64,000 nucleotides of DNA from IMG/VR virus record IMGVR_UViG_3300044858_003284; one strand, given 5' to 3'. Of the stretch, positions 6,390 to 22,175 are shown one piece after another (the first letter of the stretch is position 1; every line of letters starts with the position of its first letter). The translations under genes and the position numbers were made by a program. The stretch comes from a virus. The notes beneath the pieces were generated by a model, which worked only from the letters and a program-made list of their open reading frames with translations, was not told where the DNA came from and did not search any database.

Positions 6390-8369
6390 ATGGCAGCTAA
6401 CAATTCTACTATAGTTCAAATCCGTAGAGGTACTACGGCACAGACAGCATCTTTTACTGGTGCCTTGGCCGAACTCACGGTTGATACAGACCAAAAAACA
6501 GTTGTTGTTCATGATGGTGTAACACAAGGCGGTACAACACTCGCAACTAAAGCATTTGCTCAAGCGGCTTTTGATGCAGCCAATACAGCCACAGGTACAG
6601 TTGGTCAATTAGCATTTGATAAAGCCAACTCAGCCAATGTATTGGCACAGGCTGCTTTTGATGCAGCCAATACAGCCACAGGTACAGTTGGTCAATTAGC
6701 ATTTGATAAAGCCAACTCAGCCAATGTTTTAGCACAATCTGCATATAATTTTGCAAACACAATTGCTGCAGGTGCTATTGCTAATGTATCATTAACATAT
6801 TCTAATACTGCTTCTGGTACAATACCAGCGGTTAACAGTTTAAAACCAGGTGAACCATCTATCAATTTAAATGATGGTAGAATGTTTATTCAGTTAAACA
6901 ATGGTCAGATTATCGATATATCTTCTGCGCCAACAGGTAATACTTGGCATGTGGCCATGAATGGTAACGATAACTTTAAAGGTGATACACCAAGTGCCGC
7001 TAAGGCAACCATTCGTGCAGCTGTAGCTTTGGCACAACCTGGTGATTCTGTTGTAGTTCATTCAGGAACATACACAGAAATTACACCAATTATTATTCCA
7101 CAAAATGTTCAAGTACAAGGTTCTGGTGAAAGAACTTGTATTATTAAGCCAACAACAACTTCTAATAATGTTTTCTATGTAAACAATAACAGTTATGTAA
7201 CTGGTTTTAAATTCATAGAATATACTGGTGCCGCTGTTTCTTTCCCAACAACTACACTAGAAACAGGTACAGCACAAGCTGGCGGCACAAATACAATTAC
7301 TTTGAATTCTGGTGCATCGACTTACACCGATTATTATAAGAGCATGAAGGTCACTATTACTGGTGGAACAGGATCAGGCCAATCAGCCAATGTAACAGCA
7401 TACAATGGTACAACAAAAGTTGCCACAGTAGATGCAAATTGGTCGACACAACCAAATAACACTTCTGTATATTCTTTAGGCATACCACTTAGAACCACAC
7501 CAGCAGCTACCAGTTCAAGGTATACCACATATATTACCGGTAGTCCATACATCTATAATTGTTCTTCAATCACAACGACAGGAACAGGCATCAGGATCGA
7601 TGGAGATTTGGCGACAGGTAACAAGAGTATTATCTCTGCACAATTCACTCAGGTCAATTCTGGTGGTACAGGAATACACGTATTGAATGATGGTTACACT
7701 CAGTTGGTTTCCATTTATGGTATCTTCTGTGATACGGCATTCTTAGCCGAATCTGGTGGTACTGCTTCGATGGGTAACTGTAACGTAAACTTTGGTAACA
7801 AAGGTTTGGTTGCCAATGGTAAAGGTAAGTTGGCGATGACAGCTAATTTGTCAACCACTAGTGCTGAAGCAACCTTTACAATCGACCTAAATAATGTCGT
7901 AGCGAATAGTGCTTTGGGAATCACAGCAACTATTCCATACACCGGTTTGATTATGAAAATAGATGGAGATGCGGCTGAAAGTTATTATCCTGTTACTGAA
8001 GCAACAACATTAAGTGGTGGTAATACAACAGTAACATTCCAAAACTCAATTGCAAACTCATTCCCAAGTGGAACAGGTGTTAAATTTTATCAGCAAAGTC
8101 AATTGAGAGCATCAGGCCAAACTTTTGAATATGTTGGTGCTGGCACATCGATTAATGCTTTACCTAAGTTAGGTGGTATTGCTAACTCGGCTGCACAGAT
8201 AATTGGAATTGATGAAGGTGCTGTGTTTGCTACTTCAACAGACCAAAGTGGTAATTTTGTTGTATCTGATTTAACAATTAATCAGTCAACATCTACCATT
8301 TCAGGAAGAACTTTCTCGAAAAGTCTTTTTGCTGAAATGACTCCTTATATACTCGCTCTAGAAGGTTAA
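6390..8369 (+). CDS. Tail fibre/spike with Mtd-N-like N-terminus and a pectin-lyase-like beta-helix region
   Basis: VQIRRGTTAQTASFTGALAELTVDTDQKTVVVHDG resembles the N-terminus of Bordetella phage Mtd. WHVAMNGND..G......TIRAA...AQPGDSVVVHSGTYTE is a typical beta-helix cap. Confidence 0.75.
   Translation: MAANNSTIVQIRRGTTAQTASFTGALAELTVDTDQKTVVVHDGVTQGGTTLATKAFAQAAFDAANTATGTVGQLAFDKANSANVLAQAAFDAANTATGTVGQLAFDKANSANVLAQSAYNFANTIAAGAIANVSLTYSNTASGTIPAVNSLKPGEPSINLNDGRMFIQLNNGQIIDISSAPTGNTWHVAMNGNDNFKGDTPSAAKATIRAAVALAQPGDSVVVHSGTYTEITPIIIPQNVQVQGSGERTCIIKPTTTSNNVFYVNNNSYVTGFKFIEYTGAAVSFPTTTLETGTAQAGGTNTITLNSGASTYTDYYKSMKVTITGGTGSGQSANVTAYNGTTKVATVDANWSTQPNNTSVYSLGIPLRTTPAATSSRYTTYITGSPYIYNCSSITTTGTGIRIDGDLATGNKSIISAQFTQVNSGGTGIHVLNDGYTQLVSIYGIFCDTAFLAESGGTASMGNCNVNFGNKGLVANGKGKLAMTANLSTTSAEATFTIDLNNVVANSALGITATIPYTGLIMKIDGDAAESYYPVTEATTLSGGNTTVTFQNSIANSFPSGTGVKFYQQSQLRASGQTFEYVGAGTSINALPKLGGIANSAAQIIGIDEGAVFATSTDQSGNFVVSDLTINQSTSTISGRTFSKSLFAEMTPYILALEG
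6567..6727 (+). repeat. Tandem duplication, 87-bp period (74 bp identical), encoding AQAAFDAANTATGTVGQLAFDKANSANVL twice
   Basis: 6567-6640 is identical to 6654-6727. Confidence 0.9.
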
Positions 8370-8373
8370 TAAA

Positions 8374-8715
8374 ATGGCAACACAAATTCCATTAAATACA
8401 TTTAAAACAACAACGGCTAACGTTACTACATCAACGACTACAGTATATACTACACCTGCTGGTGTAACAACTGTTGTATTGTTGACACAGGTTTCAAATA
8501 TTGATCCTACTAATTCTGTAACTGTTTCGGCCAATCATGTTCGTAGTGGTAATTCAGTATCACTTATTAAAAATACAACCATACCTGTTAGTGATGCTGC
8601 AAGTCTGTTAACTGGTAAATTAATATTACAAACTGGTGATTCATTCTCAATTAGTGCAAGCGCAAATGACAGAGCACAATTGGTATTATCTTATCTCGAA
8701 ACTGCTAACGCTTAA
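8374..8715 (+). CDS. Small beta-rich structural/adaptor protein (paralog family 8374/12638/34082)
   Basis: TTVYTTPAG.TTVV....VSN...IP..D.......L.L..GD.....A pattern. Confidence 0.6.
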   Translation: MATQIPLNTFKTTTANVTTSTTTVYTTPAGVTTVVLLTQVSNIDPTNSVTVSANHVRSGNSVSLIKNTTIPVSDAASLLTGKLILQTGDSFSISASANDRAQLVLSYLETANA

Positions 8716-8723
8716 TATAAAAC

Positions 8724-9803
8724 ATGTCGACCAAATCCAGATTAATTAGTGGCCGTGTACCTGTAACTAGTGCAGCTAACGTTGCAGCTAATAGATATCA
8801 ATACTTAGACCTAAGTTCTGCTGAGCCAAATCTTGGCACAGGTAATACTGGTGATGTATTAATTTATGATAGTACATTTCCAGGTGGTCGTAAGTGGACT
8901 GCTCAAGCTGAGATTCGTGGATCAATTGGTGAAGCTGCATACTCAGAGGCAAATACTGCTTCTGCAAACACATTATATCTTTCTGGTGTTGATGTTGCAC
9001 AGAATAATAGACTTACAGCCGTAGAAACTAATGCTCAGGCAGCCTTTGATGCTGCTAATACAAAGTTGTCAACTTCAGGTGGTACAATTACTGGTTCTTT
9101 AAATGTATCTCAAGATTTGGCCGTTACAGGAAACTTGACTGTATTAGGGACAACAACAACAATCAATACAGCTTCTTTTACTGTTGTCGATTCTTTAATA
9201 ACATTAGGTGTAGGAAATTATACTTCTGATTTATTAGATATTGGTATTAGTGGTCATTACAATGATGGTACGAATGCACATACTGGAATTATCCGAGATC
9301 CTGGAACAAAAGAATGGTACGTGTTTGAGGGTTATACACCGACAGTTGATGCAAACAACAATGTTAATATTAACGATGCTTCATTTGCTAAAGCTAATGT
9401 TAATGCAGACTACTTTAAAGGTAATGTAGCGTTCCCGGATGGTACCACACAAACAACAGCTGCAACAGGCATAGATTCATATGCTAGAACAACGGCAAAC
9501 ACCGCTTCTGCAAACACCATCTATACTCAAGGCGTTGATGTTACACAGAATACAAATATTACCAACATAAATTCTTTAGCACAAGCTGCTTTCAACAGAG
9601 CAAACTCTGGTGCTCGAGCAACAACAAGTAACACAGCTCCAACAAGCAATACTGTTGGTGATTTATGGTTAAGTTTAACAGATGAAACATTGTATATGTA
9701 TTCATATGATGGTGTGAGCAACAATTGGATCGATATATCAGGACCAATATTAATATCAACTAATATTGTTGTTCAATACACCATCACAGCTAATGTAAGT
9801 TAA
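8724..9803 (+). CDS. Fibre stalk protein
   Basis: Shares a ~125-aa module with ORF 16483 (GSLNV.QDLAVTGNLTVLGTTTTINT...NAHTGIIRD..TKEWYVF); C-terminal TAP....GDLW....NNWIDISGP module. Confidence 0.7.
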   Translation: MSTKSRLISGRVPVTSAANVAANRYQYLDLSSAEPNLGTGNTGDVLIYDSTFPGGRKWTAQAEIRGSIGEAAYSEANTASANTLYLSGVDVAQNNRLTAVETNAQAAFDAANTKLSTSGGTITGSLNVSQDLAVTGNLTVLGTTTTINTASFTVVDSLITLGVGNYTSDLLDIGISGHYNDGTNAHTGIIRDPGTKEWYVFEGYTPTVDANNNVNINDASFAKANVNADYFKGNVAFPDGTTQTTAATGIDSYARTTANTASANTIYTQGVDVTQNTNITNINSLAQAAFNRANSGARATTSNTAPTSNTVGDLWLSLTDETLYMYSYDGVSNNWIDISGPILISTNIVVQYTITANVS

Positions 9804-9812
9804 GGATTAAAA

Positions 9813-11231
9813 ATGCCATTAAATGAAGGTCAAACAGTCCAATATACAGTAACTACAACTAATACAGCTGATGGTACTGTATTATATTGGAAAACCACAG
9901 GTAATACGACCAACTCCGATATAGTTGGTGGTAATACTGGAACAATTACAATTACAAATAATCAAGCAGTGTTTAATGTTACTACTTCTGCTGACGTAAC
10001 ATTAGACGGAACAAAAACATTAGGTATTGCTTTGTCTACAGGTTCAGTAAGTGGTCCAACAGTAGGACAAACTACAAATCCGATTACAGTTGAAGATACA
10101 TCGGTACCTCCAACAGCAAAACTATACACCTGGGGTTATAACGCTGCCGGAGAATTAGCACTTAATGATACAGTTAATCGATCCAGTCCAGTTCAAGTAG
10201 GAACGGAAATAAATTGGAGTATATTGAGCTCAAAAGGACTTAGCACACTTGCTATTAAAACCGATGGTACATTATGGGCTTGGGGTAGAAGTTATCAGGG
10301 TGTATTGGGCCTAAACAGTGATGTTTATTCCTATAAATCAAGTCCAGTTCAAGTAGGAACAGATACCAATTGGAGTAAAGTGAGTCATAGTGGAACACAT
10401 GCATTAGCTATTAAAACCGATGGTACTTTATGGGCATGGGGAAAAAATGATTATGGTCAATTAGGACTGAACAACATACTTACTCCATCCTATCGTGGCA
10501 GATCCAGTCCAACACAAGTAGGAACAGGAACCAATTGGATGTCAGTAAGTGCTGCTGAAACTATAACAGCAGCTATTAAAACCGATGGTACTCTTTGGAC
10601 ATGGGGCCGAGATCGGCCCGGAACAAATCCAGTTCCTATGTTGGCTCGACCTGGTGATACTTACATAAGCAGATCCAGCCCCGTTCAAGTAGGAACAGAT
10701 ACTACATGGAGTAAAGTAAATATGGGTGTATCAGTTGCTATGGCAATTAAAACCAATGGCACATTGTGGACTTGGGGAACAGGTCGAGCAATGGGATTAA
10801 ATATTAACTATGGTTATAGATCCAGTCCAACACAAGTGGGATCACTCACAACATGGAGTGAAGCAGTCGTCAATCAAATGAATAGATTTAACAATAATTG
10901 TATTGCTCTAAGAACCGATGGCACGTTGTGGATATGGGGAAATAATCAAGAAGGTCAACTAGGATTTAATAACGCTTCTGACGGAACTCACAAATCTAGC
11001 CCAACTCAATTAGGAACAAACACTTGGACTAGTATATCGTTTGATGATCAAAAAACAGCAGCTGCTGTTAGAAGTGATGGTACTTTATGGGCATGGGGTA
11101 ATAATTTTGATGGACAATTGGGACAAAATAACAGGACATATAGGTCCAGTCCAGTTCAAGTAGGAACAAGAACCAATTGGAGTTTAGTCAGTATGGGATA
11201 TCGAAAAATTCATGCAATTACCAACACATAG
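9813..11231 (+). CDS. Ig/Calx-beta-like domain plus RCC1/BLIP-II-like beta-propeller protein
   Basis: ~50-aa repeats AIKTDGTLWxWG.N..G.LG.N....RSSPxQVG..T.W. Confidence 0.85.
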   Translation: MPLNEGQTVQYTVTTTNTADGTVLYWKTTGNTTNSDIVGGNTGTITITNNQAVFNVTTSADVTLDGTKTLGIALSTGSVSGPTVGQTTNPITVEDTSVPPTAKLYTWGYNAAGELALNDTVNRSSPVQVGTEINWSILSSKGLSTLAIKTDGTLWAWGRSYQGVLGLNSDVYSYKSSPVQVGTDTNWSKVSHSGTHALAIKTDGTLWAWGKNDYGQLGLNNILTPSYRGRSSPTQVGTGTNWMSVSAAETITAAIKTDGTLWTWGRDRPGTNPVPMLARPGDTYISRSSPVQVGTDTTWSKVNMGVSVAMAIKTNGTLWTWGTGRAMGLNINYGYRSSPTQVGSLTTWSEAVVNQMNRFNNNCIALRTDGTLWIWGNNQEGQLGFNNASDGTHKSSPTQLGTNTWTSISFDDQKTAAAVRSDGTLWAWGNNFDGQLGQNNRTYRSSPVQVGTRTNWSLVSMGYRKIHAITNT

Positions 11232-11262
11232 AATAAATATAAAATAAATTTAGGATTATTAC

Positions 11263-12627
11263 ATGCCATTCCCATTATCACCAGCAAATAACCAAACTGC
11301 CTTAGTAAACGGCATTGTTTATCAATGGAATAATGTGCTTGGAGTTTGGAAAAGAAATGGTTCAATTAACTCTGCAACAATTGGTCAATTACTTTTAACT
11401 TCTGCACAACAATCAACAACCAATGGTTCAGGAACTTTAATCGTTTCTGGTGGTGCCGGTATCACAGGTAACGTTTATACTGGTGGAATTTTTATTACTG
11501 GTTCTGCCAACGGAATTACTTTTTCAGATGGTTCAGTACAAACTTCTGCTGGCGCTTCAGCAGCCACAGGTGCAGCTGCTTTTGCTCAAGCTAATGCGGC
11601 CAACCAATATGCTAATTCGGCTTATGCTCAAGCTAATGCAGCCTTTGCACAAGCCAATGCGGCCAATCAATATGCTAATTCAGCATTTGCAAAGGCTAAC
11701 ACAGTTGCAACTGATTTATCAAACTTCACTTCTCTGTTTAGTAGTATTGAAGCAACACAGAATACTAGAATTAGTAATGCTGAAACACAAACACAAGCCG
11801 CATTTGATAAAGCCAACTCTGCCAATGTTCTAGCACAAGCCGCTTTCAATGCAGCCAATACAAAGTTCTCATCTTCAGGTGGTACAATTACTGGAGATAC
11901 TGTTGTATTAGGAAACTTAACAATTACTGGTAACACAGTATATGCAAACACAGAAAACTTAACTGTCAAAGACAACATCATTACATTAAACTCTAATGTA
12001 ACAGGTGTACCTACACTAAGTGCTGGTCTTGAAATTAATCGTGGTTCTTCTACTAATACAAAACTATTATGGTCTGAAGCCAATACATCTTGGGAATTTA
12101 CTAATAATGGTACGACTTATGAAAAAATTCCTGGATTAACATACGTTCAAGCAGCCTTTGATAAAGCCAATACTGCTGAAGGTTCAGTTGGTTTCCTTGC
12201 CTTTGATAAAGCTAACTCAGCCAATGTTCTAGCACAAGCTGCTTTTGATGCAGCTAATACTGCTGGTGGTGCTGATTCATATGCTAGACAAACAGCCAAT
12301 GCTGCATTTGATAAAGCCAACTCTGCAGCACTAGCAGCTAACTCGGCAGGCTCTGTATTAACTTCTACTGTTGATACATTTACTGGTGATGGTTCAACTG
12401 TTGCATACACTTTATCAACAACGCCAGCAACTATTAATTATACAACGGCTGTGGTTGGTGGTGTTACACAACCAAGGTCTGCTTACTCAGTTGTTGGAAC
12501 AACTCTTACATTTACCTCTGCACCAGCCAATACTCAGATTATAGAAGTAACAACCATTGGTACATCCAATACCACACTATATACAGTTAATAATATTATT
12601 AGTCCATTCTTATTGATGGGCGCTTAA
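11263..12627 (+). CDS. Fibre stalk protein (MPFPLSPANNQ family)
   Basis: Ala/Asn coil repeats (AQANAANQYANSA twice; DKANSANVLAQAAF); C-terminal DTFTGDGST..YTL Ig-like module; ends SPFLLMGA. Confidence 0.7.
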   Translation: MPFPLSPANNQTALVNGIVYQWNNVLGVWKRNGSINSATIGQLLLTSAQQSTTNGSGTLIVSGGAGITGNVYTGGIFITGSANGITFSDGSVQTSAGASAATGAAAFAQANAANQYANSAYAQANAAFAQANAANQYANSAFAKANTVATDLSNFTSLFSSIEATQNTRISNAETQTQAAFDKANSANVLAQAAFNAANTKFSSSGGTITGDTVVLGNLTITGNTVYANTENLTVKDNIITLNSNVTGVPTLSAGLEINRGSSTNTKLLWSEANTSWEFTNNGTTYEKIPGLTYVQAAFDKANTAEGSVGFLAFDKANSANVLAQAAFDAANTAGGADSYARQTANAAFDKANSAALAANSAGSVLTSTVDTFTGDGSTVAYTLSTTPATINYTTAVVGGVTQPRSAYSVVGTTLTFTSAPANTQIIEVTTIGTSNTTLYTVNNIISPFLLMGA

Positions 12628-12637
12628 AGGAAATAAA

Positions 12638-12967
12638 ATGCCAATAACATATAAAGTTCTAGGACAAAATAGCCCAACTGCAAATACACTTACAACGGTG
12701 TATACTGTGCCAGCTTTAACCAGTGCTGTATTAAGCACCGTAACAGTATGCAATCAGTCAAGTGTTGGTGCCACATTTCGATTAGCTGTTCGGCCTTCTG
12801 GTGAATCAATTGCAGCTAAACACTATATTAATTATGATACGCCAGTTCCGGCTAATGATACTGTTTCGTTAACACTTGGTATTACATTGGCTGCAACAGA
12901 TGTTCTTTCTGCCAATGCAAATACTTCGACTCTAAGTTTCAATGTATTCGGCAGCGAGATTAGTTAA
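12638..12967 (+). CDS. Small beta-rich structural/adaptor protein
   Basis: YKVLGQ.SP.ANT.TTVYTVPA...; paralog-like to ORF 8374; TAATG coupling to the next gene. Confidence 0.65.
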   Translation: MPITYKVLGQNSPTANTLTTVYTVPALTSAVLSTVTVCNQSSVGATFRLAVRPSGESIAAKHYINYDTPVPANDTVSLTLGITLAATDVLSANANTSTLSFNVFGSEIS

Positions 12968-14706
12968 TGGCAATAACGACAGCAAGCCAATCTCAGATAG
13001 GACAAGAAACAGCCAAGAATAGTCAGATTGTTACAACATCTGTCAGATTGGTCAATTCTGGTGCGTCTACTGGTCCTTCTATTTCATCTATTATTGTTAC
13101 AGATAGTGGATATAATAATCTTGATGATACGGCTGCTGCTACAAGTAATTCATACATTCGTATTCTTGGCACCGGCTTTACTTCAACAGCCAATGTGTTT
13201 CTCAATGGTACCATGGTACCAAAAGCCAATATTACATTTGTAAGTTCTTCTGAGTTGCGTGCTGTATTGCCCGTTTCAAATACAGGCAACTATGCTGTAG
13301 GTGTATTCAATTCAAATTCTGCTGGTGCTTTGTATTCAAGTTCATTTGTTATTTCGACCATGCCACAATGGTTAACATCAGCAACATTAAACAATGCAGC
13401 ATCCGACACACCATTTTCAATTGCACTATCGGCTACATCCGATTCTTCTGTAACTTATGCAAACACCACAGCATTACCTGCAGGTACTACATTGGCGGCA
13501 AATGGATTATTCTCCGGTACAATTAGCACTGGAACTGAAACAACATATTCATTTGATGTCAAAGCAACTGATACTGAAAATCAAGATTCTTCAAGAACAT
13601 TTCAGGTGACAGTAACAGTAGGTCCAGGACCAGGAGCAATGTATACTTGGGGTAGAAATAATAGTGCATCATTAGGACTCAGTGATTCGACTTATCGATC
13701 CAGTCCCACTCAAGTGGGATCAGCAACCAATTGGAAGTTGGTAAGTGTTGGTACCTATGAAACATCAGCCATAAAAACTGATGGTACGTTATGGTATTGG
13801 GGCCGAAATTACTTTGGTGCTGCTGGTCTCAATGATTCAAATATTGTAAAAAATATTCCAACACAAATAGGAACAAATACAAATTGGAATTTATCAACCA
13901 TTGGAACCTACGCTCATTTAGCCATCAAAACTGATGGTACGTTATGGGCATGGGGATCAAATCAACGTGGAGTAATGGGAAACAATGCTGCTCAAATTGG
14001 AACCGGCGCTTCAAGTCCAGTTCAAATAGGCACAAACACCAATTGGAGTTTAGTGGAACATCAAGGGTATAGTGTTTTAGCAATCAAAACTGATGGTACT
14101 TTATGGGCATGGGGAAATAATTCCAATGGTGAATTAGGCCTTGGTGTGGAAGGTACGACTAACAGATCCAGTCCCACACAAGTAGGAACAAATACCAACT
14201 GGAGTTTAATAAAAAATGGACAATATCAGAATGCAGCAATTAAAACTGATGGCACGTTATGGACATGGGGATCTAGTATTTATGGTCAATTAGGACATAA
14301 TAATACGAACACTATTTATAGTCCAACACAAGTTGGAACAGCAACCAATTGGAGATCAATAGATTGTATAAACCACATGACTATAGCCATCAAAACTGAT
14401 GGTACTTTGTGGACATGGGGCCGAAATCAAAATGGCCAATTAGGACACGGTGGTACTGTTTATCGATCCAGTCCAACACAAGTTGGAACATCAACTAATT
14501 GGAAAACATCTTCTGCATCACGACTTGGTCCATCAATGGCTACCAAAACTGATGGCACACTATGGACATGGGGTCAAAATCAAAATGGTCAATTAGGATT
14601 GAATACTATAGAAAATGTATCCAGTCCTGTGCAAATAGGATCAAAAACAACATGGCAAACAATTCGAGCAGGATTTTTTAGTGCTGCAGCCATATCAACC
14701 ACTTAA
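12967..14706 (+). CDS. IPT/TIG-like plus Ig-like domain plus RCC1-like propeller protein
   Basis: IRILGTGF...FVSSSELRAVLP (IPT-like); LPAGTTLAANG.FSGT Ig repeat; RCC1 repeats. Confidence 0.85.
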   Translation: MAITTASQSQIGQETAKNSQIVTTSVRLVNSGASTGPSISSIIVTDSGYNNLDDTAAATSNSYIRILGTGFTSTANVFLNGTMVPKANITFVSSSELRAVLPVSNTGNYAVGVFNSNSAGALYSSSFVISTMPQWLTSATLNNAASDTPFSIALSATSDSSVTYANTTALPAGTTLAANGLFSGTISTGTETTYSFDVKATDTENQDSSRTFQVTVTVGPGPGAMYTWGRNNSASLGLSDSTYRSSPTQVGSATNWKLVSVGTYETSAIKTDGTLWYWGRNYFGAAGLNDSNIVKNIPTQIGTNTNWNLSTIGTYAHLAIKTDGTLWAWGSNQRGVMGNNAAQIGTGASSPVQIGTNTNWSLVEHQGYSVLAIKTDGTLWAWGNNSNGELGLGVEGTTNRSSPTQVGTNTNWSLIKNGQYQNAAIKTDGTLWTWGSSIYGQLGHNNTNTIYSPTQVGTATNWRSIDCINHMTIAIKTDGTLWTWGRNQNGQLGHGGTVYRSSPTQVGTSTNWKTSSASRLGPSMATKTDGTLWTWGQNQNGQLGLNTIENVSSPVQIGSKTTWQTIRAGFFSAAAISTT

Positions 14707-14770
14707 TTAATTCCAAATGATCCATATACCAAAACAAATAAATAATAGAATAAGAATAAAAGGTTTGTAA

Positions 14771-16453
14771 ATGCCAATATTAAAAATACTACCAGACGCA
14801 ATCAGTAACACAGCAAGTTTTGTGTTTGGTAATGTTACTACCACTTCGATTACTGCTAATGGTGTAAACCTTGGTACAGCCGTTGCAGAAGCTTTTGTGT
14901 TGGCCAATAATGCAGCCAAATCAACCACATCGGATACAGCACCATCAAATCCAAAAGTTGGTGATACATGGTTCGATACAGTAACAAACGTTCTTCTCCG
15001 TTACACCAATGATGGTGTCAGTAATAACTGGATCGATATCTCTGGTCCACAAAATACTGGTTACATTTATCAATCATATGCACTTACACCAAATACATCA
15101 ACGATTAATGAAACAACTGGTAACACAGTAATCTATACTGTTACAACTACCAATACAGCCGACAATACAGTATTATATTGGACAAATTCAGGTTCAACTG
15201 TTGCATCCGACTTTAGTGATTCTGCAAATAGTGGTAACGTAACTATCATAAACAATTCTGGAACAATCACAAGAAGCTTATCGGCAGATTTAGTAACAGA
15301 AGGATCAGAAACAATCATATTGAGTTTAAGAACCGGTTCAAATACAGGACCAATTGTTGCAGTTGCATCTTCTGTAACTATTAATGACACATCAGTACCT
15401 CCAGTTATAAGATTGTTTACTTGGGGATTAAATGATACTGGACAATTGGCACTTAATGATACTACCACTAGGTCAAGTCCGGTTCAAGTTGGAACAGGAA
15501 CAGATTGGACCTTTTTGGCTCCAGGAGGAGGAGCATCCACTAAAGCTGATGGTACTTTATGGATTTGGGGATCTACTTCATTAGTAAGTAACAAATCAAG
15601 CCCAACACAAGTTGCAGGTACTACATGGAATAGATTAGGTTCACAAAGTATGGCCACAAAAACCGACAATACGTTATGGTTATGGGGATCAAATACTTAT
15701 GGTCAATTAGGACAAAATAATAGAGTTAGTGCAACGAGTCCAGTTCAAGTTACAGGAACAACTTGGAGTAGAATAGCTGATGGTGTTGTATCTAAATTTG
15801 CTATTAAAACTGACGGCACTTTCTGGTCATGGGGAATGAATTATTCTGGCCAATTAGGAAATGGTCTTGGAGATCGATATAGTCCTTATCAATCTAGGTC
15901 TAGTCCAATACAAGTAGGATCAAATACTAATTGGAGTGAAGTTGTAAGTAATGGTTATAGTGTATTAGCTATCAAAACTGATGGTACTTTGTGGTCTTGG
16001 GGTGAGGGATCTCGAGGATTATTAGGAACAAACAATAACGATGCAAGATCCAGTCCTGTTCAAGTAGGAACAGATACAACTTGGAGTAAAATAACCACAG
16101 GTGGATCAACCTCTTTAGCTATTAAAACAGATGGCACATTATGGGCATGGGGAGCCAATGATTGGGGTCAATTAGGTCTCAATAACTCAACCTATAGATC
16201 CAGTCCAGTTCAAGTGGGTGCAACTACTAACTGGAGTGAAGTAAATACAAATGATTCAGCAGTTATAGCTGTCAAAACCGATGGCACATTGTGGACATGG
16301 GGTTTCAATAGGAATGGTGTTTTAGGAAATAACGATTGGCAACCATTTAATAATGGAAATAAATCCAGTCCAACACAAATAGGAACAAACACCAATTGGA
16401 GTTTAGGTAGAATAGGTGGCAACGGCGTTGCACATGCTATAACCGCCACATAA
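14771..16453 (+). CDS. Short stalk fused to a Calx-beta-like domain and RCC1-like propeller
   Basis: Carries, in one frame, the NNWIDISGP module and the Ig domain that are split between genes elsewhere; RCC1 repeats. Confidence 0.85.
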   Translation: MPILKILPDAISNTASFVFGNVTTTSITANGVNLGTAVAEAFVLANNAAKSTTSDTAPSNPKVGDTWFDTVTNVLLRYTNDGVSNNWIDISGPQNTGYIYQSYALTPNTSTINETTGNTVIYTVTTTNTADNTVLYWTNSGSTVASDFSDSANSGNVTIINNSGTITRSLSADLVTEGSETIILSLRTGSNTGPIVAVASSVTINDTSVPPVIRLFTWGLNDTGQLALNDTTTRSSPVQVGTGTDWTFLAPGGGASTKADGTLWIWGSTSLVSNKSSPTQVAGTTWNRLGSQSMATKTDNTLWLWGSNTYGQLGQNNRVSATSPVQVTGTTWSRIADGVVSKFAIKTDGTFWSWGMNYSGQLGNGLGDRYSPYQSRSSPIQVGSNTNWSEVVSNGYSVLAIKTDGTLWSWGEGSRGLLGTNNNDARSSPVQVGTDTTWSKITTGGSTSLAIKTDGTLWAWGANDWGQLGLNNSTYRSSPVQVGATTNWSEVNTNDSAVIAVKTDGTLWTWGFNRNGVLGNNDWQPFNNGNKSSPTQIGTNTNWSLGRIGGNGVAHAITAT

Positions 16454-16482
16454 TAAACAAAGAATACATTTAGGAACATTAC

Positions 16483-17625
16483 ATGTCTTTTCCATTATCA
16501 CCAGCAAATAATCAAGTTACGCTTGAGAATGGTATATCATATACCTATAATGCATCCAGAGGTGCATGGTTTAGGACACCTGCAACTGCATTAGCTTCAC
16601 TTACAAGTAATACATTTACTGTCCTAAGTTCGATTATATTTTCTGATGGTACTTCACAAACATCTGCTGCAAGTCCTACAGATTCATATGCAAGAACAAC
16701 AGCAAACACAGCAACAAATAATATTACCATTATTCAAGGTGTAGATACAACACAGAACACTCGTATGTCAATCATCGAGGGTGTTGATACCACACAGAAT
16801 ACTAATATTACCATAGCAACCAATGCGGCTACAGGAGCTTTTGCACAAGCTAATGCAACTGCTGGCGGACTAACAACTGCTAATAGTAGAATAGATGTTG
16901 TAGAAGGTGTAAATACATCTCAAAATACTCGTATGGGTATTATAGAAGGTGTAAACACAACTCAAAATACAAACATTACTACAGCAGATACCAAAGCTCA
17001 AGCAGCCTTTGATAAAGCCAACACATCAATCACCACATCAGGTGGTTCAATTAGTGGTTCACTTAATGTTACACAAGATTTAGCCGTTACAGGAAATTTA
17101 ACTGTATTAGGTACGACAACAACAATCAATACATCCTCATTCACAGTCAATGATTCTTTAATACAATTAGGAATAGGAAATTATACTTCTGATTTGTTAG
17201 ATATTGGTATCAGCGCACACTATAATGATGGCACCAATGCACATACAGGAATTATTCGTGACCATGTCACCAAAGAATGGTATGTGTTTAAAGGATATAC
17301 ACCAACACTTGACGCAAACAATAATATTAATATTAGTGATGCATCGTTTTCTAAGGCCAATGTTCAAGCTGATTACTTTAAAGGTAACGTAGCGTTTCCT
17401 GATGGCACAGTTCAAGCAACAGCCGTAAATTTAAGAATGACTGGAGGCACAACTGCACCAGCCAATCCAACTGTTGGTGATTTATGGTATGACACCGACA
17501 TTGATGTATTACTCCGATACACCTATGACGGCACAGCAAACAATTGGGTTGATATTACTGGACCAACAATTGGTAGATCATCGTATATTCGACCAACATA
17601 TTCAATATCTGCTAACGTAGCATAA
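16483..17625 (+). CDS. Fibre stalk protein (MSFPLSPANNQ family)
   Basis: IEGVDTTQNT coil repeats; mosaic of modules shared with ORFs 19077 and 8724. Confidence 0.7.
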   Translation: MSFPLSPANNQVTLENGISYTYNASRGAWFRTPATALASLTSNTFTVLSSIIFSDGTSQTSAASPTDSYARTTANTATNNITIIQGVDTTQNTRMSIIEGVDTTQNTNITIATNAATGAFAQANATAGGLTTANSRIDVVEGVNTSQNTRMGIIEGVNTTQNTNITTADTKAQAAFDKANTSITTSGGSISGSLNVTQDLAVTGNLTVLGTTTTINTSSFTVNDSLIQLGIGNYTSDLLDIGISAHYNDGTNAHTGIIRDHVTKEWYVFKGYTPTLDANNNINISDASFSKANVQADYFKGNVAFPDGTVQATAVNLRMTGGTTAPANPTVGDLWYDTDIDVLLRYTYDGTANNWVDITGPTIGRSSYIRPTYSISANVA

Positions 17626-17634
17626 GGATTAAAA

Positions 17635-19050
17635 ATGCCATTAAATGAATCCAGTTCAAACACTACAGTTCAATATACAGTATCAACAACCAGAGTATCT
17701 GATGGTACGGTATTGTATTGGAGAACCACAGGTAGTGTATCGAATTCTGATATTGTAGGAGGTAATACCGGATCAATTACGATTACAAACAATCGTGCTT
17801 ATATTAATGTCACCATTATTGCAGAAAATGTGACCGAAGGTAATGAAACATTAGGTATTGCAATTTCTACTGGTTCACAAAATGGTCCAACAGTAGTATC
17901 AACTGCAAATTCAATTACTGTTAATGACACATCATTAGATCCATACTATGCTCTGTTCTCCACAGGATATAATCAAAATGGTGAATTAGGCCTCAATGAT
18001 CGAAATGTTTACCGATCCAGTCCAACACAAATAGGATCAAATACTAATTGGAGAGTAATTGCAGCTGGTGGTCCGAGCCAGCAAGCTGGATTTTGTGCAG
18101 GTATTAAAACAGATGGCACCTTATGGTTATGGGGTAACGGTTCTTATGGAAAATTAGGCCAAAATGATACTGTTTCACGATCTTCACCAACACAAGTAGG
18201 ATCTCTAACATCTTGGTCAAATGTTGTTATTGACCGAGGCGCACAAGCTTGCATGGCTATTAGAACTGATGGTACAATATGGACATGGGGAAATAATGCT
18301 TACACGGGAATGCTTGGTCATAATGAAGGTTCCACGTTTTCTTTTACTAATAAAAGCAGTCCAACAAAAGTAGGAACAGACACAAATTGGAGTAAAATTG
18401 GTGCGGCATCTGGTGCCTTTGCAGCCATCAAAACAGATGGTACTTTGTGGACATGGGGTGCTGGTCAATATGGAAGATTAGGCCTTGGTGATACATCTAA
18501 TCGATCCAGTCCAACACAAGTAGGAACAAACACAAATTGGGCCAGCTTGAACAATACAGCTGGTGGTTACTGGATGGGTGCAATTAAAACTGATGGTACT
18601 TTGTGGACATGGGGATATAATGCTCAAAATCAAATTGGTTCAGGTTCACCAACAAGCAGATCCAGTCCTGTTCAACAAGGATCGGGTACGAATTGGTCTA
18701 AGCTTTATGTAGGATCGGACCACGGACTTGGCATTAAAACTGATGGTACATTATGGGGTTGGGGAAATAATTCAAGACAACAATTAACAAATAGTGTGTC
18801 TAATTATGGAACCATAACTCAAATTGGTAATTCAACAAATTGGGCTGATATTGGAACTGGCCAATATGAAACTGTTGGATTGAAAACAGATGGCACCATA
18901 TGGGGTTGGGGTAAAAATACTGTTGGTGCATTAGGATTGAACGGACTTAATAATTCTTATATAAATTCTCCAACACAAATTGGAACAGGAACAAATTGGG
19001 GTGCAGTAGCTGTTGGATCAATGACTTTAATAAGAACAAATTCACAATAA
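17635..19050 (+). CDS. Ig/Calx-beta-like domain plus RCC1-like propeller protein
   Basis: Paralog of ORF 9813 (MPLNE...TVQYTV...DGTVLYW); RCC1 repeats. Confidence 0.85.
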   Translation: MPLNESSSNTTVQYTVSTTRVSDGTVLYWRTTGSVSNSDIVGGNTGSITITNNRAYINVTIIAENVTEGNETLGIAISTGSQNGPTVVSTANSITVNDTSLDPYYALFSTGYNQNGELGLNDRNVYRSSPTQIGSNTNWRVIAAGGPSQQAGFCAGIKTDGTLWLWGNGSYGKLGQNDTVSRSSPTQVGSLTSWSNVVIDRGAQACMAIRTDGTIWTWGNNAYTGMLGHNEGSTFSFTNKSSPTKVGTDTNWSKIGAASGAFAAIKTDGTLWTWGAGQYGRLGLGDTSNRSSPTQVGTNTNWASLNNTAGGYWMGAIKTDGTLWTWGYNAQNQIGSGSPTSRSSPVQQGSGTNWSKLYVGSDHGLGIKTDGTLWGWGNNSRQQLTNSVSNYGTITQIGNSTNWADIGTGQYETVGLKTDGTIWGWGKNTVGALGLNGLNNSYINSPTQIGTGTNWGAVAVGSMTLIRTNSQ

Positions 19051-19076
19051 ATATAGAATACATTTAGGAACAACTC

Positions 19077-20429
19077 ATGTCATTTCCGTTATCACCGTCA
19101 AACAATCAAATAGCATTAGTAAATGGTATTGAATACTATTGGTATGCTAGCAAAGGTGCATGGTATCGCTATGGTGATGGAAGTGCCAATGTAATCACAT
19201 CAAATACATTTCAAGTATTAAGTTCAATCATATTCTCTGATGGTACTTCACAGAGTTCAGCACCAACAAATATTGATTCGTATGCAAGAACAACTGCAAA
19301 CACAGCAACAAACAATATAACAATCATTCAAGGTGTTGATGTTGGTCAAAACACCAGAATGACGATTATAGAAGGTGTTGATACTACACAGAATACCAAT
19401 ATTACCATAGCAACCAATGCTGCAACAGCAGCCTTTGCTCAAGCGAATGCAACAGCAGGTGGTCTTACAACAGCTAATGCTAGAATCACAGTTGCTGAAG
19501 GTGTAGATGTAGGCCAAAACACTCGTATGTCTATTATTGAGGGTGTGGATATAACTCAAAACACCAACATCACCATTATTCAAGGCGTAGACACAACACA
19601 GAATACTAGAATTGATATACTTGAAGGTGTTAATACTACACAGAATACCAACATCACTAATACTGATACCAAAGCACAAGCAGCTTTTGATAAAGCCAAT
19701 GATGCTTACACTTTAGCCAATACAGCAAATGCAGCTGCAGGTTCAGGTGGGGCTAGTTTAACTTCATTCACTGCAACAGTAGACACATTTACAGGTAATG
19801 GCAGTCAAACAGAATTTACATTGTCTGCTGTGCCTGATTCTGAAGATAACACATTTGTATTTTTAAACGGTGTGTATCAAGAAAAAGGTACATACTCTAT
19901 CGCTGGTGCAAATGTTGTTCTTACAGGTGTAGCAACATCTAATGATACGATAGAAGTTACTACAGTTGCTGGTAGTATTATGAATGTAAGCCCTACTGCT
20001 TACTCAACAAGAATATATCAAGGTAACGGATCAACAAACACATTTACAATTTCAGTTGGACACACCGCAAATACAGTCATGGTGTTTAACAATGGTGTAT
20101 GTCAATTCCCTGGTGATGATTATACAGTAAGTGGTACAACATTAACTTATGTGTTAACTCCACAGTCGGATGAAACCATACAGATTCGTGAGATGCCAAT
20201 TGATAAGTTGGTGCCATTAACACAACCTGTCATGCGGAGATACACAGCAAACGGTGTTCAAACACAATTTACTGTAACAGCAGGTCAAACTGCTAACTCA
20301 ATGTTTGTATATGAGAACGGTATCTGCCAGGTACCTGTATCCGATTACACAGTAAGTGGAGTAACATTAACATTTGTAACCGCACCAGTAGCCAATGTGG
20401 TCGTTCAAATTAGAGAGATGTCAATCTAA
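19077..20429 (+). CDS. Fibre stalk protein with three C-terminal Ig-like repeats
   Basis: EGVD..QNT repeats; three [FY]..NG....FT......V..NGV.Q....Y...G..L modules. Confidence 0.7.
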   Translation: MSFPLSPSNNQIALVNGIEYYWYASKGAWYRYGDGSANVITSNTFQVLSSIIFSDGTSQSSAPTNIDSYARTTANTATNNITIIQGVDVGQNTRMTIIEGVDTTQNTNITIATNAATAAFAQANATAGGLTTANARITVAEGVDVGQNTRMSIIEGVDITQNTNITIIQGVDTTQNTRIDILEGVNTTQNTNITNTDTKAQAAFDKANDAYTLANTANAAAGSGGASLTSFTATVDTFTGNGSQTEFTLSAVPDSEDNTFVFLNGVYQEKGTYSIAGANVVLTGVATSNDTIEVTTVAGSIMNVSPTAYSTRIYQGNGSTNTFTISVGHTANTVMVFNNGVCQFPGDDYTVSGTTLTYVLTPQSDETIQIREMPIDKLVPLTQPVMRRYTANGVQTQFTVTAGQTANSMFVYENGICQVPVSDYTVSGVTLTFVTAPVANVVVQIREMSI

Positions 20430-20438
20430 GGATAAAAA

Positions 20439-22175
20439 ATGGCGTTTACACAAATAACAACATCGAATTTAGATAATACAATTACTACAAAGCTGGCAGC
20501 AGCCGAGGCAGCCAATGCAGCCGTTGCAAACATTGTTTCTTTGGCTATCAGTAGTGTGCAAATTGCTGATTCATCGTATAATCTTATAGATGATACAGCA
20601 GCCAATACTGGTGGTGGTTATTTGGTAATTAACGGAACAGGTTTTACAAATCAATGCGTTGTGATTGTTGGTACAACGAATGCTACTAGCACCACATTTG
20701 CAAATACAAAACAACTACGAGCTCAAGTTCCTGGTTTGGCTGCAGCATCATATCCTTTATATGTGGTCGATAGTGTAACTGGTGCAACAGCAATTAAAGT
20801 AAATGGATTAACATACAGTTCATTTCCAGCATGGTCAACAGGATCAACATTAAGTAATCAAGAAGCAAACACAGCCTTTGCGGTTAATCTAAGTGCATCA
20901 TCAGATTCATCGGTAACTTATGCCAACACTACAGCATTACCAGCTGGTACAACATTAGCTGCTAACGGGTATTTTTCTGGTACAGTTACGATTGGTGCTC
21001 AAACAACATATTCATTTGACGTAAAAGCAACTGATGCTGAAAATCAGGACGTAAGTAGAACATTTAGTTTGACGGTAACGTTAACACCATTAAATTATCT
21101 ATATGCTTGGGGTTTTAGTGGTAGCGGTGAATTAGGACTCAATAATACAATTTATAGGTCCAGTCCAACGCAAGTAGGAGCAAGTGGAACTTGGTTAAAT
21201 TTAGCTGGTTATGGAGATTATGGTGGAAGCTCTTTAGCGTCCAAAACTGATGGTACTTTGTGGGCATGGGGATCTAATACTCTTGGCCGATTAGGTCTTC
21301 CAATTTCAACGAGTGGTGCAACATCCAGTCCAACACAAGTAGGAACAGATACAACATGGACTGGTGCATTAACTTCATCAGATAGAGCTAGTTTTGCTAT
21401 TAAAACCGATGGCACTTTATGGTCTTGGGGAAATGCCGGCCTTGGCCAATTAGGGCAAGGTAATAGGGTTTATAGGTCTAGTCCAGTTCAAGTAGGAACA
21501 GGAACAGATTGGAGTAAATTAGGAAGAACATCTAATTCTACTTTTGCTATTAAAACCGATGGCACTCTATGGGCTTGGGGAAACAATAACATGGGACAAT
21601 TGGGGCAAAATAATACAGTTCTTCGATCTAGTCCAACACAAATAGGAACAGGAACAGATTGGAGTAAAATAGGTACTGGTTTTAATGCGACTATAGCTGC
21701 TATTAAAACTGATGGTACCTTATGGACATGGGGTTCTGAATTCGATGGCATTTTAGGTCTTAATTCTTCAAGTGTGCATAGGTCCAGTCCAGTTCAAGTA
21801 GGAACAGGAACAGATTGGAACAATGTAGTAATAGGTAACCAAAGTATGATTGCGAGTAAAACTAATGGCACTTTGTGGGCCTGGGGAGCTAATAATCAAG
21901 GACAATTAGGCCGCAATAATACAGTTTATGTTTCTAGTCCAGTTCAAGTAGGAGGAAACACAAATTGGTCACAATTAGCAGTTGCTTACAGCAATATGGC
22001 AGCAATCAAAACTGATGGTACAATTTGGATTTGGGGTAACCAGATTTTTGGATCACACGGACTTAATGATGCCAGTGCAGTTAGACGATCTAGCCCAACA
22101 CAAATAGGAACGGGAACAAATTGGTCAAAAATACACGGTTTAGGTGGCGGTTGGCTTACAACAAGAAATAGTTAA
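20439..22175 (+). CDS. IPT/TIG plus Ig plus RCC1-like propeller protein
   Basis: DDTAANTGGG..VINGTGF; LPAGTTLAANG; RCC1 repeats. Confidence 0.85.
   Translation: MAFTQITTSNLDNTITTKLAAAEAANAAVANIVSLAISSVQIADSSYNLIDDTAANTGGGYLVINGTGFTNQCVVIVGTTNATSTTFANTKQLRAQVPGLAAASYPLYVVDSVTGATAIKVNGLTYSSFPAWSTGSTLSNQEANTAFAVNLSASSDSSVTYANTTALPAGTTLAANGYFSGTVTIGAQTTYSFDVKATDAENQDVSRTFSLTVTLTPLNYLYAWGFSGSGELGLNNTIYRSSPTQVGASGTWLNLAGYGDYGGSSLASKTDGTLWAWGSNTLGRLGLPISTSGATSSPTQVGTDTTWTGALTSSDRASFAIKTDGTLWSWGNAGLGQLGQGNRVYRSSPVQVGTGTDWSKLGRTSNSTFAIKTDGTLWAWGNNNMGQLGQNNTVLRSSPTQIGTGTDWSKIGTGFNATIAAIKTDGTLWTWGSEFDGILGLNSSSVHRSSPVQVGTGTDWNNVVIGNQSMIASKTNGTLWAWGANNQGQLGRNNTVYVSSPVQVGGNTNWSQLAVAYSNMAAIKTDGTIWIWGNQIFGSHGLNDASAVRRSSPTQIGTGTNWSKIHGLGGGWLTTRNS

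What the first reader, a model, noticed from the sequence alone, without database searches (positions are those of the whole stretch)
9770..17660. An Ig-like domain split across two genes by an identical in-frame stop junction (twice) but intact in a third paralog
Seen: ORF 8724 ends ...NNWIDISGP...YTITANVS* and ORF 16483 ends ...NNWVDITGP...YSISANVA*. Each is followed in the same frame by the identical TAA GGA TTA AAA ATG CCA TTA AAT GAA (9801-9827; 17623-17649), starting an RCC1-head gene MPLNE...TVQYTV...DGTVLYW. In ORF 14771 the same elements are contiguous: NNWIDISGP...YALTPNTSTINE...TVIYTVTTTNTADNTVLYW (about 15030-15180). The apparent first beta-strand of the head's Ig/Calx-beta-like domain is therefore encoded by the upstream stalk gene. 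Inference: either donor-strand complementation, as in chaperone-usher pili, lets stalks capture separately translated and possibly swappable propeller heads, or occasional UAA readthrough makes a fusion. Caveat: the 9-nt spacer contains the SD, so the frame match alone could be a by-product of SD spacing.
Basis: partly seen in the sequence, partly recalled or inferred. Interest (0 to 1): 0.82.

Follow-up and report, generated by a model that had tools for sequence, protein, structure and literature searches.

The report
Phage fibre with a nicked docking domain
In a T4-like freshwater phage, one old gene split cut a small beta-sandwich domain so that its first strand ends the fibre-stalk gene and the rest starts the receptor-binding head gene; the cut is conserved in over 100 head variants and is where stalks and heads get reshuffled.

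Summary
Stalk genes 8724-9803 and 16483-17625 each end in a 9-residue tail. A TAA and 9 nt follow, then head genes 9813-11231 and 17635-19050. Paralog 14771-16453 has the same elements in one uninterrupted frame.

Repeat phasing in homologous tandem arrays, an AlphaFold2 model and a Calx-beta superposition all make the stalk tail strand A of the head's first domain.

"Twice" is not two events. All 19 split-head domains form one clade (100/100), so there was one fission, later duplicated.

The in-frame spacing comes from a generic stop-inside-Shine-Dalgarno cassette that also sits at an unrelated gene boundary. Readthrough has little support: TAA in 18 of 18 junctions, no RNA structure, no fused form found.

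New here: at least 115 head clusters (RCC1 or glycine-rich) start at exactly this nick. The stalk tail keeps the domain's consensus residues despite synonymous change. Recombination breakpoints between related genomes fall on the junction.

The most likely mechanism is inferred, not shown. The stalk tail completes the head's domain in trans and docks exchangeable heads, with the two genes translationally coupled.

Closest known kinds: T-even gp37/gp38 fibres, and beta-strand complementation in pili. I class it as a new variant of a known kind.

The parts
8724..9803 (+). Stalk gene A (359 aa), fibre shaft, no Pfam family
   Evidence: ORF. PHROG structural-protein hit phrog_697. No Pfam hit.
9663..9734 (+). 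Three-stranded beta-meander at the stalk end (GDLW...NNWID). I read it as a foldon-like trimer clamp; that reading is inference.
   Evidence: Strands 15-18, 23-29 and 34-38 of the 169-aa model, pLDDT 81-87. Many invariant columns in alignment A3.
9741..9773 (+). Variable linker between the meander and the tail strand
   Evidence: pLDDT 63. Two diverged sequence types among relatives.
9774..9800 (+). Stalk A tail QYTITANVS, which is strand A of the head's Calx-beta-like domain
9801..9827 (+). Junction: TAA stop inside the SD (AAGGA), 9-nt spacer, ATG and first four head codons. Identical to 17623-17649.
9813..11231 (+). Head gene A (472 aa). Residues 1-100 are the domain without strand A (9813-10112). 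A 7-blade RCC1-like propeller follows.
   Evidence: Pfam PF25390 8.3e-73 and PF00415 2.3e-42. Domain limits.
14771..16453 (+). Fused paralog C (560 aa): short stalk, meander, intact domain and RCC1 propeller in one chain
15074..15406 (+). Intact Calx-beta-like domain of paralog C. Strand A (SYALTP) is at 15074-15091.
   Evidence: AF2 pLDDT 91-98 over residues 101-210. Foldseek and VIA matches to CALX/NCX1 CBD.
16483..17625 (+). Stalk gene B (380 aa). Its tail strand TYSISANVA is at 17596-17622.
17623..17649 (+). Second copy of the junction cassette
17635..19050 (+). Head gene B (471 aa): nicked domain plus RCC1 propeller
20427..20441 (+). Control: the same kind of stop-in-SD cassette (TAAGGATAAAAAATG, 9-nt gap) between two unrelated genes. 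Here it carries a second in-frame TAA.
   Evidence: The orthologous boundary in L048 uses TAAGGATTAAAAATG.

Best explanation
This is a two-piece tail fibre of a T4-like myovirus, created by one ancient gene fission. A stop-SD-start cassette was placed in the loop between strands A and A' of the first Calx-beta-like domain of a stalk-domain-head fibre gene. Since then the stalk polypeptide ends with that domain's strand A, 8-9 residues on a roughly 10-residue linker behind a foldon-like beta-meander. The head polypeptide starts, after likely Met removal, exactly at the next residue of the same domain. Shown here: the cut lies inside one domain; it is conserved across a large clade; the tail is under protein-level selection; the junction is a recombination boundary. 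Inferred: the stalk tail inserts into the head's incomplete beta-sandwich in trans (beta-strand complementation) and holds an RCC1-propeller or glycine-rich head on each stalk chain. Also inferred: the TAA-in-SD cassette couples translation so that both pieces are made together, and the generic tail-and-socket plus the conserved junction DNA let heads be exchanged between stalks by homologous recombination.
For: (1) One domain is cut. Tandem copies of the domain in about 70 other proteins begin at the position of SYALTPN. The consensus of 73 intact copies is P-T-Y-[SA]-[VI]-[TS]-P-[SN]-x-[TS]-[ST]-[VI]-N-E-G, with Y at 90% and E at 100%. The stalk tails supply the Y..I..N part and the heads supply the [LV]-N-E part.
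(2) The AF2 model of the fused paralog has strand 102-107 at block pLDDT 97. In the AF2 model of pair A joined through the stop, the tail forms strand 52-57 at pLDDT about 91. The superposition on CALX-CBD1 (3ead_B: Z 8.9, rmsd 3.2, 101 aligned) spans model residues 50-163, so it includes the tail.
(3) The tail is selected as protein. In 18 distinct junctions Y is invariant with TAC x10 and TAT x8. N is invariant with AAC x7 and AAT x11. I is 17 of 18, using three codons. The conserved hydrophobic positions alternate.
(4) The nick is clean and old. At least 115 of 120 head clusters start M-[PAS]-[LVI]-[NG]-E at the same residue. All 19 split domains form one clade at 100/100.
(5) The junction is a module boundary. 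Window pair A against L001 pair b is 31-61% identical upstream and 90-96% identical over the whole head, switching at the junction. Against L001 pair a the stalk tail is about 100% identical and the head falls to about 55%. RCC1 and Gly_rich_2 heads both follow the same junction.
(6) Split pairs and a fused paralog coexist in at least 3 genomes.
(7) The phage is T4-like: sheath, portal and gp23-like capsid protein.
Against: No binding has been shown. The joined-chain AF2 model is steered by an alignment full of intact homologs, so it shows compatibility, not assembly. The split-clade domain sits on a long branch (0.3 + 1.13 changes per site). It has also replaced a near-invariant F of the family (DF becomes DI), which could mean it adapted to fold without strand A. 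The two stalk-tail types pair with the same heads, so there is no co-variation to support a specific interface. Stalk oligomeric state and stalk:head stoichiometry are untested. Conservation of the junction DNA is explained by ribosome-binding-site function alone.
Confidence: 0.58

Rival explanations
1. Independent pieces. After the fission the head folds and works without strand A. It attaches to the virion through another surface, or to another protein. The stalk tail is kept for a different reason, such as capping the stalk, a chaperone contact, or simply as homology for recombination.
For: The split-clade domain is on a long branch and lost a near-invariant F. There is no co-variation between tail type and head type. 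Many beta-sandwiches tolerate loss of an edge strand (general knowledge).
Against: The tail keeps exactly the family's strand-A consensus, with synonymous codon turnover. The nick removes no residue of the domain in at least 115 head clusters. Gene order and 9-nt coupling are invariant.
Confidence: 0.25
2. Occasional readthrough of the UAA produces a covalent stalk-GLK-head fusion that is the functional or nucleating species.
For: Stop and start are in frame. The 9-nt spacer never carries a second stop in 18 junctions, while two generic cassettes in the same window read GGATAAAAA. No indel was seen in the spacer. The joined chain models well, with the junction loop at pLDDT 77.
Against: The frame match is intrinsic to the cassette and recurs at an unrelated boundary. 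The stop is UAA in 18 of 18 junctions; UAA is read by both release factors and is the least leaky stop (established knowledge). There is no RNA structure (z 0.27 and -0.61) and no tRNA gene in the window. Spacer changes are K-to-E, K-to-R and one synonymous change, which shows no protein-level pattern. No fused protein above 51% identity was found among proteins of 827-2360 aa.
Confidence: 0.07
3. Artefact or decay: a sequencing or assembly error, or a recently broken pseudogene.
For: None beyond the in-frame stop itself.
Against: The same junction is present in independent viral and metagenome contigs, with 18 distinct sequences. Both flanking genes are intact, and the cassette supplies a canonical SD and ATG.
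Confidence: 0.02

Closest known systems
T-even (T2/T6-type) distal tail fibre: gp37 stalk plus separately encoded gp38 adhesin
   Same: Both are in T4-like myoviruses. The adhesin gene lies directly downstream of the fibre gene. The adhesin has a conserved attachment end and a variable specificity part, and recombination in the conserved flanks swaps specificity (PMC3157838; here). Relatives carry glycine-rich heads at this junction.
   Different: The heads show no gp38 homology; their PHROG hits are RCC1 families only. Attachment is predicted to use a nicked Calx-beta-like domain shared between the two genes rather than a gp38 N-terminal domain. An unsplit paralog coexists in the same genome.
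Donor-strand complementation in chaperone-usher pili
   Same: An Ig-like sandwich lacking one strand is completed by a strand from another polypeptide. This is the proposed mode of joining (established knowledge; here inferred).
   Different: Pilins lack the C-terminal G strand and receive an N-terminal extension, assisted by a chaperone and an usher. Here the N-terminal strand A is missing and the donor is a C-terminal tail. The assembly is cytoplasmic. There is no sequence relationship.
PilC/PilY1 C-terminal beta-strand complementing PilK-family minor pilins in type IV pili
   Same: A short C-terminal peptide of one protein completes the sheet of its partner to hold an adhesin on a fibre tip. 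In related systems the same strand is part of the partner's own chain, so the strand is fused in some systems and supplied in trans in others (PMC12918778).
   Different: The fold and the machinery are different. In the pilus the adhesin donates the strand, whereas here the stalk would donate it to the adhesin. The pilus case is supported by experiments and this one is not.
Calx-beta (CBD) domains and bacterial Ig-like adhesin repeats
   Same: The fold matches: CALX-CBD1 at Z 8.9 and NCX1 CBD1 at Foldseek E 1.9e-4. The domain occurs as tandem arrays in large surface proteins.
   Different: There is no Pfam Calx-beta hit on the window's proteins even at E 10. No Ca-binding function is implied.

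Membership tests
Calx-beta / Ig-like beta-sandwich | Seven-strand sandwich superposable on solved Calx-beta domains | tested here: met
   VIA: 3ead_B Z 8.9, rmsd 3.2, 101 aligned, model range 50-163. Foldseek: NCX1/CALX CBD1 at E about 2e-4.
Calx-beta / Ig-like beta-sandwich | Pfam PF03160 match above the gathering score | tested here: not met
   No hit on the window domains at E up to 10. Only precomputed Pfam labels on homologs (PF03160, PF13927, PF18134), two of them marked faint.
RCC1-like beta-propeller | Pfam RCC1/WD40_RLD repeats above threshold | tested here: met
   PF25390 at 8.3e-73, 4.7e-51 and 1.3e-65; PF00415 at about 1e-42 for the heads at 9813, 14771 and 17635.
Chaperone-usher donor-strand complementation | An incomplete Ig-like fold completed by a strand of another chain | tested here: inconclusive
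   The strand is encoded in the other gene and fits in the joined-chain model. Assembly in trans is not shown.
Chaperone-usher donor-strand complementation | The missing strand is the C-terminal G strand and the donor is an N-terminal extension | tested here: not met
   The missing strand is N-terminal strand A and the donor is the stalk's C-terminal tail.
Chaperone-usher donor-strand complementation | Dedicated periplasmic chaperone and usher | not tested
   This is a phage virion protein assembled in the cytoplasm. No search for these proteins was made.
T-even gp37/gp38 two-component fibre | T4-like myovirus with the adhesin gene directly downstream of the fibre gene | tested here: met
   Sheath phrog_23, portal phrog_213 and major head protein phrog_138. 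9-nt gap between stalk and head genes.
T-even gp37/gp38 two-component fibre | Adhesin homologous to gp38 | tested here: not met
   The PHROG scan of the heads returns only RCC1 families at E up to 1e-3.
T-even gp37/gp38 two-component fibre | Recombination at conserved flanks exchanges adhesins | tested here: met
   Identity switches at the junction between the window and L001.
Programmed stop-codon readthrough | Leaky stop and stimulatory context or structure | tested here: not met
   UAA-G in 18 of 18 junctions. Fold z-scores 0.27 and -0.61.
Programmed stop-codon readthrough | Suppressor tRNA available | tested here: inconclusive
   No tRNA gene in the 64-kb window. The rest of the 176-kb genome is not held.
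Programmed stop-codon readthrough | Extended protein detected | not testable with these tools
   Needs virion proteomics or a western blot.

The most novel reading that the evidence does not exclude
A natural, non-covalent tag-and-socket system for phage receptor-binding proteins. An 8-9-residue C-terminal strand on a trimeric stalk plugs into any of more than 100 head variants that lack strand A. Heads would then be interchangeable at the protein level as well as by recombination. Either stalk of one virion, or stalks of co-infecting phages, could carry either head, giving combinatorial fibres and a portable split-domain docking pair for engineering.
Probability: 0.3. Interest if true: 0.8.

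Novelty: new variant of a known kind. Interest (0 to 1): 0.62.

Why it matters
Host range in tailed phages is set by fibre tips, and how tips are exchanged is a central question. Here a large uncultured freshwater clade of T4-like phages appears to have standardised one interface. The interface is a domain nicked at one exact residue, and stalks of many lengths on one side meet RCC1-propeller or glycine-rich heads on the other. This gives a precise, testable docking hypothesis built on a 9-residue peptide and a roughly 100-residue socket. It explains why recombination breakpoints fall where they do. It also offers a natural split-domain pair that could be used to retarget phage fibres. The work settles that the in-frame stop is a by-product of ribosome-binding-site design rather than a recoding signal.

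Tried and rejected
- Complex prediction of head residues 1-105 with the last 60 stalk residues, each as an alignment: score 0.01 against a mark of 0.32, and the partner's own fold was uncertain. This gives no verdict and is not used as evidence either way.
- Megablast of 8000-20000 against deposited phages: no match.
- No whole genome is held for the window.
No read-level check of population variants or expression at the stop was possible, and read laying was not used.
- P0083, which starts VNEGQ, looked like an independent split. It is a gene call truncated by the contig end; the frame upstream is open and encodes strand A.
- Relaxed Pfam scans of the stalk end and of the domain gave only sub-threshold noise: Y_Y_Y at E 0.054 and DUF7827 at E 0.11.
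- A PDB profile search of A1 gave nothing below E 0.017.
- RNA folding of both junctions: no structure beyond shuffles.
- Earlier scan notes searched by sequence: nothing.
- Literature searches for strand complementation in phage fibres found no phage case.
- One script call was lost and was rerun.
- Spacer substitutions (3 changes) are too few to test for protein-level constraint.
Full report
**Context.** The window is part of a T4-like myovirus. PHROG scans identify a tail sheath (phrog_23, 2.7e-125), a portal (phrog_213, 1.6e-204), a gp23-like major head protein (phrog_138, 3.3e-160) and a scaffold protein. They also identify a helicase and an SbcC-like nuclease subunit. GC content is 37.6% and nearly all genes are on the + strand. 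The protein clusters it encodes lie on a contig of 176,303 bp. No deposited phage matches at megablast level, and no whole genome is held for the window. Positions 8374-22175 are a tandemly duplicated fibre module of stalks, RCC1-propeller heads and small beta-sandwich genes.

- The 27-mer at 9801-9827 is repeated exactly at 17623-17649 and nowhere else, with 0 of 100 shuffles matching.
- Stalk A (8724-9803) ends in QYTITANVS and stalk B (16483-17625) ends in TYSISANVA.
- Each is followed by TAA, the 9 nt GGATTAAAA, and an ATG that opens a head gene starting MPLNE.
- Read through the stop, both pairs align collinearly with the single-chain paralog C (14771-16453) over the stalk end, the roughly 110-residue domain and the propeller.

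**The cut lies inside one domain.** Three independent lines agree.
- Repeat phasing. The N-terminal 230 residues of C find 266 proteins. Many carry 3-6 tandem copies of the domain, and the repeat unit starts at residue 102/103 of C, at SYALTPN.
- Family consensus. In 73 intact copies from other proteins the consensus is P-T-Y-[SA]-[VI]-[TS]-P-[SN]-x-[TS]-[ST]-[VI]-N-E-G, with Y at 90% and E at 100%. The stalk tails supply Y-x-I-[TS]-[AS]-N-V-x and the heads supply [LV]-N-E.
- Structure prediction. AlphaFold2 on C residues 1-230 (106-row alignment) gives residues 101-210 at block pLDDT 91-98, with strand A at 102-107, A' at 111-113 and B at 119-127. Foldseek and VIA-align place the domain with Calx-beta domains: NCX1 at E 1.9e-4, and CALX-CBD1 3ead_B at Z 8.9, rmsd 3.2 and 101 aligned.

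I also folded pair A as one chain, with the TAA read as Q, which is a linker trick. The tail forms strand 52-57 at pLDDT about 91 and the junction loop scores 77. The Calx-beta superposition spans model residues 50-163, so it includes the tail. The alignment behind that model is rich in intact homologs. The model therefore shows that the tail is compatible with the strand-A position, not that the two chains assemble.

**One event, not two.** A maximum-likelihood tree of 45 domains puts all 19 split-head domains on one side of a branch with support 100/100. They are separated by a long branch from the fused C-type domains and from other intact domains. Intact domains are the rule in the wider family. 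The split is therefore a derived, single fission that was later duplicated. The two junctions in the window are paralogs.

**How widespread it is.**
- A scan of viral contigs for the conserved NNW[IV]D[IV][ST]GP motif is blind to the junction itself. Together with exact-pattern scans it recovered the junction in many freshwater viral and metagenome contigs.
- Every split junction has TAA plus exactly 9 nt. The spacer variants are GGATTAAAA, GGATTAGAA, GGACTAAAA and GGATTAAGA.
- In the protein database, at least 115 of 120 listed clusters related to the head's first 100 residues start at M-[PAS]-[LVI]-[NG]-E. That is exactly the nick. They carry either RCC1 propellers or Gly_rich_2 heads.
- A small second residue predicts removal of the initiator Met (established MetAP specificity). 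The two chains together would then contain every residue of the domain.
- No longer protein (827-2360 aa) is more than 51% identical to this domain, so no fused revertant of the split clade was found. This is weak evidence.
- Fused C-type genes coexist with split pairs in at least three genomes.

**The stalk tail is under protein-level selection.** Across 18 distinct junction sequences:
- Y is invariant while its codon is TAC x10 and TAT x8.
- N is invariant with AAC x7 and AAT x11.
- I is 17 of 18, using three codons.
- The conserved hydrophobic positions alternate, as expected for a strand with one buried face.
- The linker just upstream has diverged into two types.

A tail that no longer took part in a fold would not be expected to keep precisely the family's strand-A signature.

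**The junction is a recombination boundary.** I compared the window with a related genome, IMGVR_UViG_3300023174_000089, locus L001.
- Window pair A has the stalk end of L001 pair a: about 100% identity from -240 to 0. The head then decays to about 55%.
- Window head A is the head of L001 pair b: 90-96% identity over the whole gene, against only 31-61% upstream. The switch falls at the junction (the head is 94% identical).
- L001 has the gene order 113-aa gene, stalk a, head a, stalk b, head b. The window has 113-aa gene, stalk A, head A. This looks like a crossover between two junction cassettes.
- Both stalk-tail types occur with the same head-start types across contigs, and the types are intermixed on the head tree.

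So heads are exchangeable genetically, and the tail-to-domain interface cannot be pair-specific.

**Why the stop is in frame.** The cassette TAAGGAT[AT]AAAAATG embeds the stop in the Shine-Dalgarno sequence. By construction it puts the ATG 12 nt after the T of TAA. It recurs at 3245 and at 20427-20441, the latter between an unrelated fibre gene and a TIG/He_PIG/RCC1 gene, where it contains a second in-frame TAA. It is also at the orthologous boundary in L048. The frame match and the conservation of the spacer are thus explained by ribosome-binding-site design and probable translational coupling.

**Readthrough.** UAA is the stop in all 18 junctions. No RNA structure stands out (z 0.27 and -0.61). 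The window has no tRNA genes. The three spacer substitutions show no protein-level pattern. One small point keeps readthrough from being excluded: the split junctions never carry a second in-frame stop in the spacer, while two generic cassettes in the same window do.

**Mechanism proposed.** A stalk, probably trimeric, ends in a foldon-like three-stranded meander at 9663-9734. Behind it come a flexible linker and the 9-residue tail. Each tail inserts as strand A into the incomplete Calx-beta-like domain at the N-terminus of a head monomer. The two genes are translated in a coupled manner. The steps shown are the domain cut, its conservation, selection on the tail, and recombination at the junction. 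The steps inferred are trans insertion, stoichiometry, trimer state and coupling. The one complex prediction I ran gave no verdict and is listed only under things tried.

**Comparison with known systems.**
- By function and genomic logic, the closest known system is the T2/T6-type distal fibre. There the gp38 adhesin binds the tip of gp37 through a conserved N-terminal attachment domain, and recombination in conserved motifs swaps specificity (PMC3157838). The heads here are not gp38 homologs.
- By proposed chemistry, it resembles donor-strand complementation of chaperone-usher pili, with the opposite strand and polarity. It also resembles the recently described C-terminal beta-strand of PilC/PilY1 that completes PilK-family minor pilins. 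In related type II secretion systems that strand is built into the PilK homolog itself (PMC12918778).
- I found no report of a phage fibre joined through a gene-split domain in the held library.

**Verdict.** The readthrough idea is unlikely. The strand-donation idea is the best-supported reading but is unproven. It is a new variant of the two-component fibre theme.

Noticed in passing
L001:1123-7419 versus window 8374-11231: The related genome carries stalk a, head a, stalk b and head b where the window has only stalk A (like a) and head A (like b). This is as if a crossover between two identical junction cassettes had deleted one head and one stalk.
   Followed up: partly
window 20427-20441: A stop-in-SD cassette, TAAGGATAAAAAATG, lies between unrelated genes. 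It has the same 9-nt in-frame spacing but carries a second in-frame TAA. The split-domain junctions always have TTA or CTA at that codon.
   Followed up: partly
window 11263-11300, 16483-16520, 19077-19115: Three fibre genes share an N-terminus, M-[SP]-F-P-L-S-P-[AS]-N-N-Q. It is probably a common attachment module. The same N-terminus heads fused C-type proteins in other contigs (P0039, P0063, P0074).
   Followed up: no
L040:9537-10600 and 11790-12960; L050:5490-6570: In relatives the same nicked domain is followed by glycine-rich heads (Pfam Gly_rich_2) instead of RCC1 propellers. This is reminiscent of the glycine-rich motifs of gp38 adhesins.
   Followed up: partly
window 9813-10112 and 17635-17940: The split-clade domains replace the family's near-invariant D-F with D-I (SDIVGG) and sit on a long branch. 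This may reflect adaptation after the fission.
   Followed up: no
L055, L056, L064: The NNWVDVSGP motif also occurs in an unrelated protein context, followed by SAPYAVDNWEF... So the meander motif is not restricted to these fibres.
   Followed up: no
P0002, P0023, P0032, P0034 and others: Metagenomic proteins of 600-975 aa carry 4-6 tandem copies of this Calx-beta-like domain. None of the window's copies reaches a Pfam threshold, so the family seems poorly covered by Pfam.
   Followed up: partly
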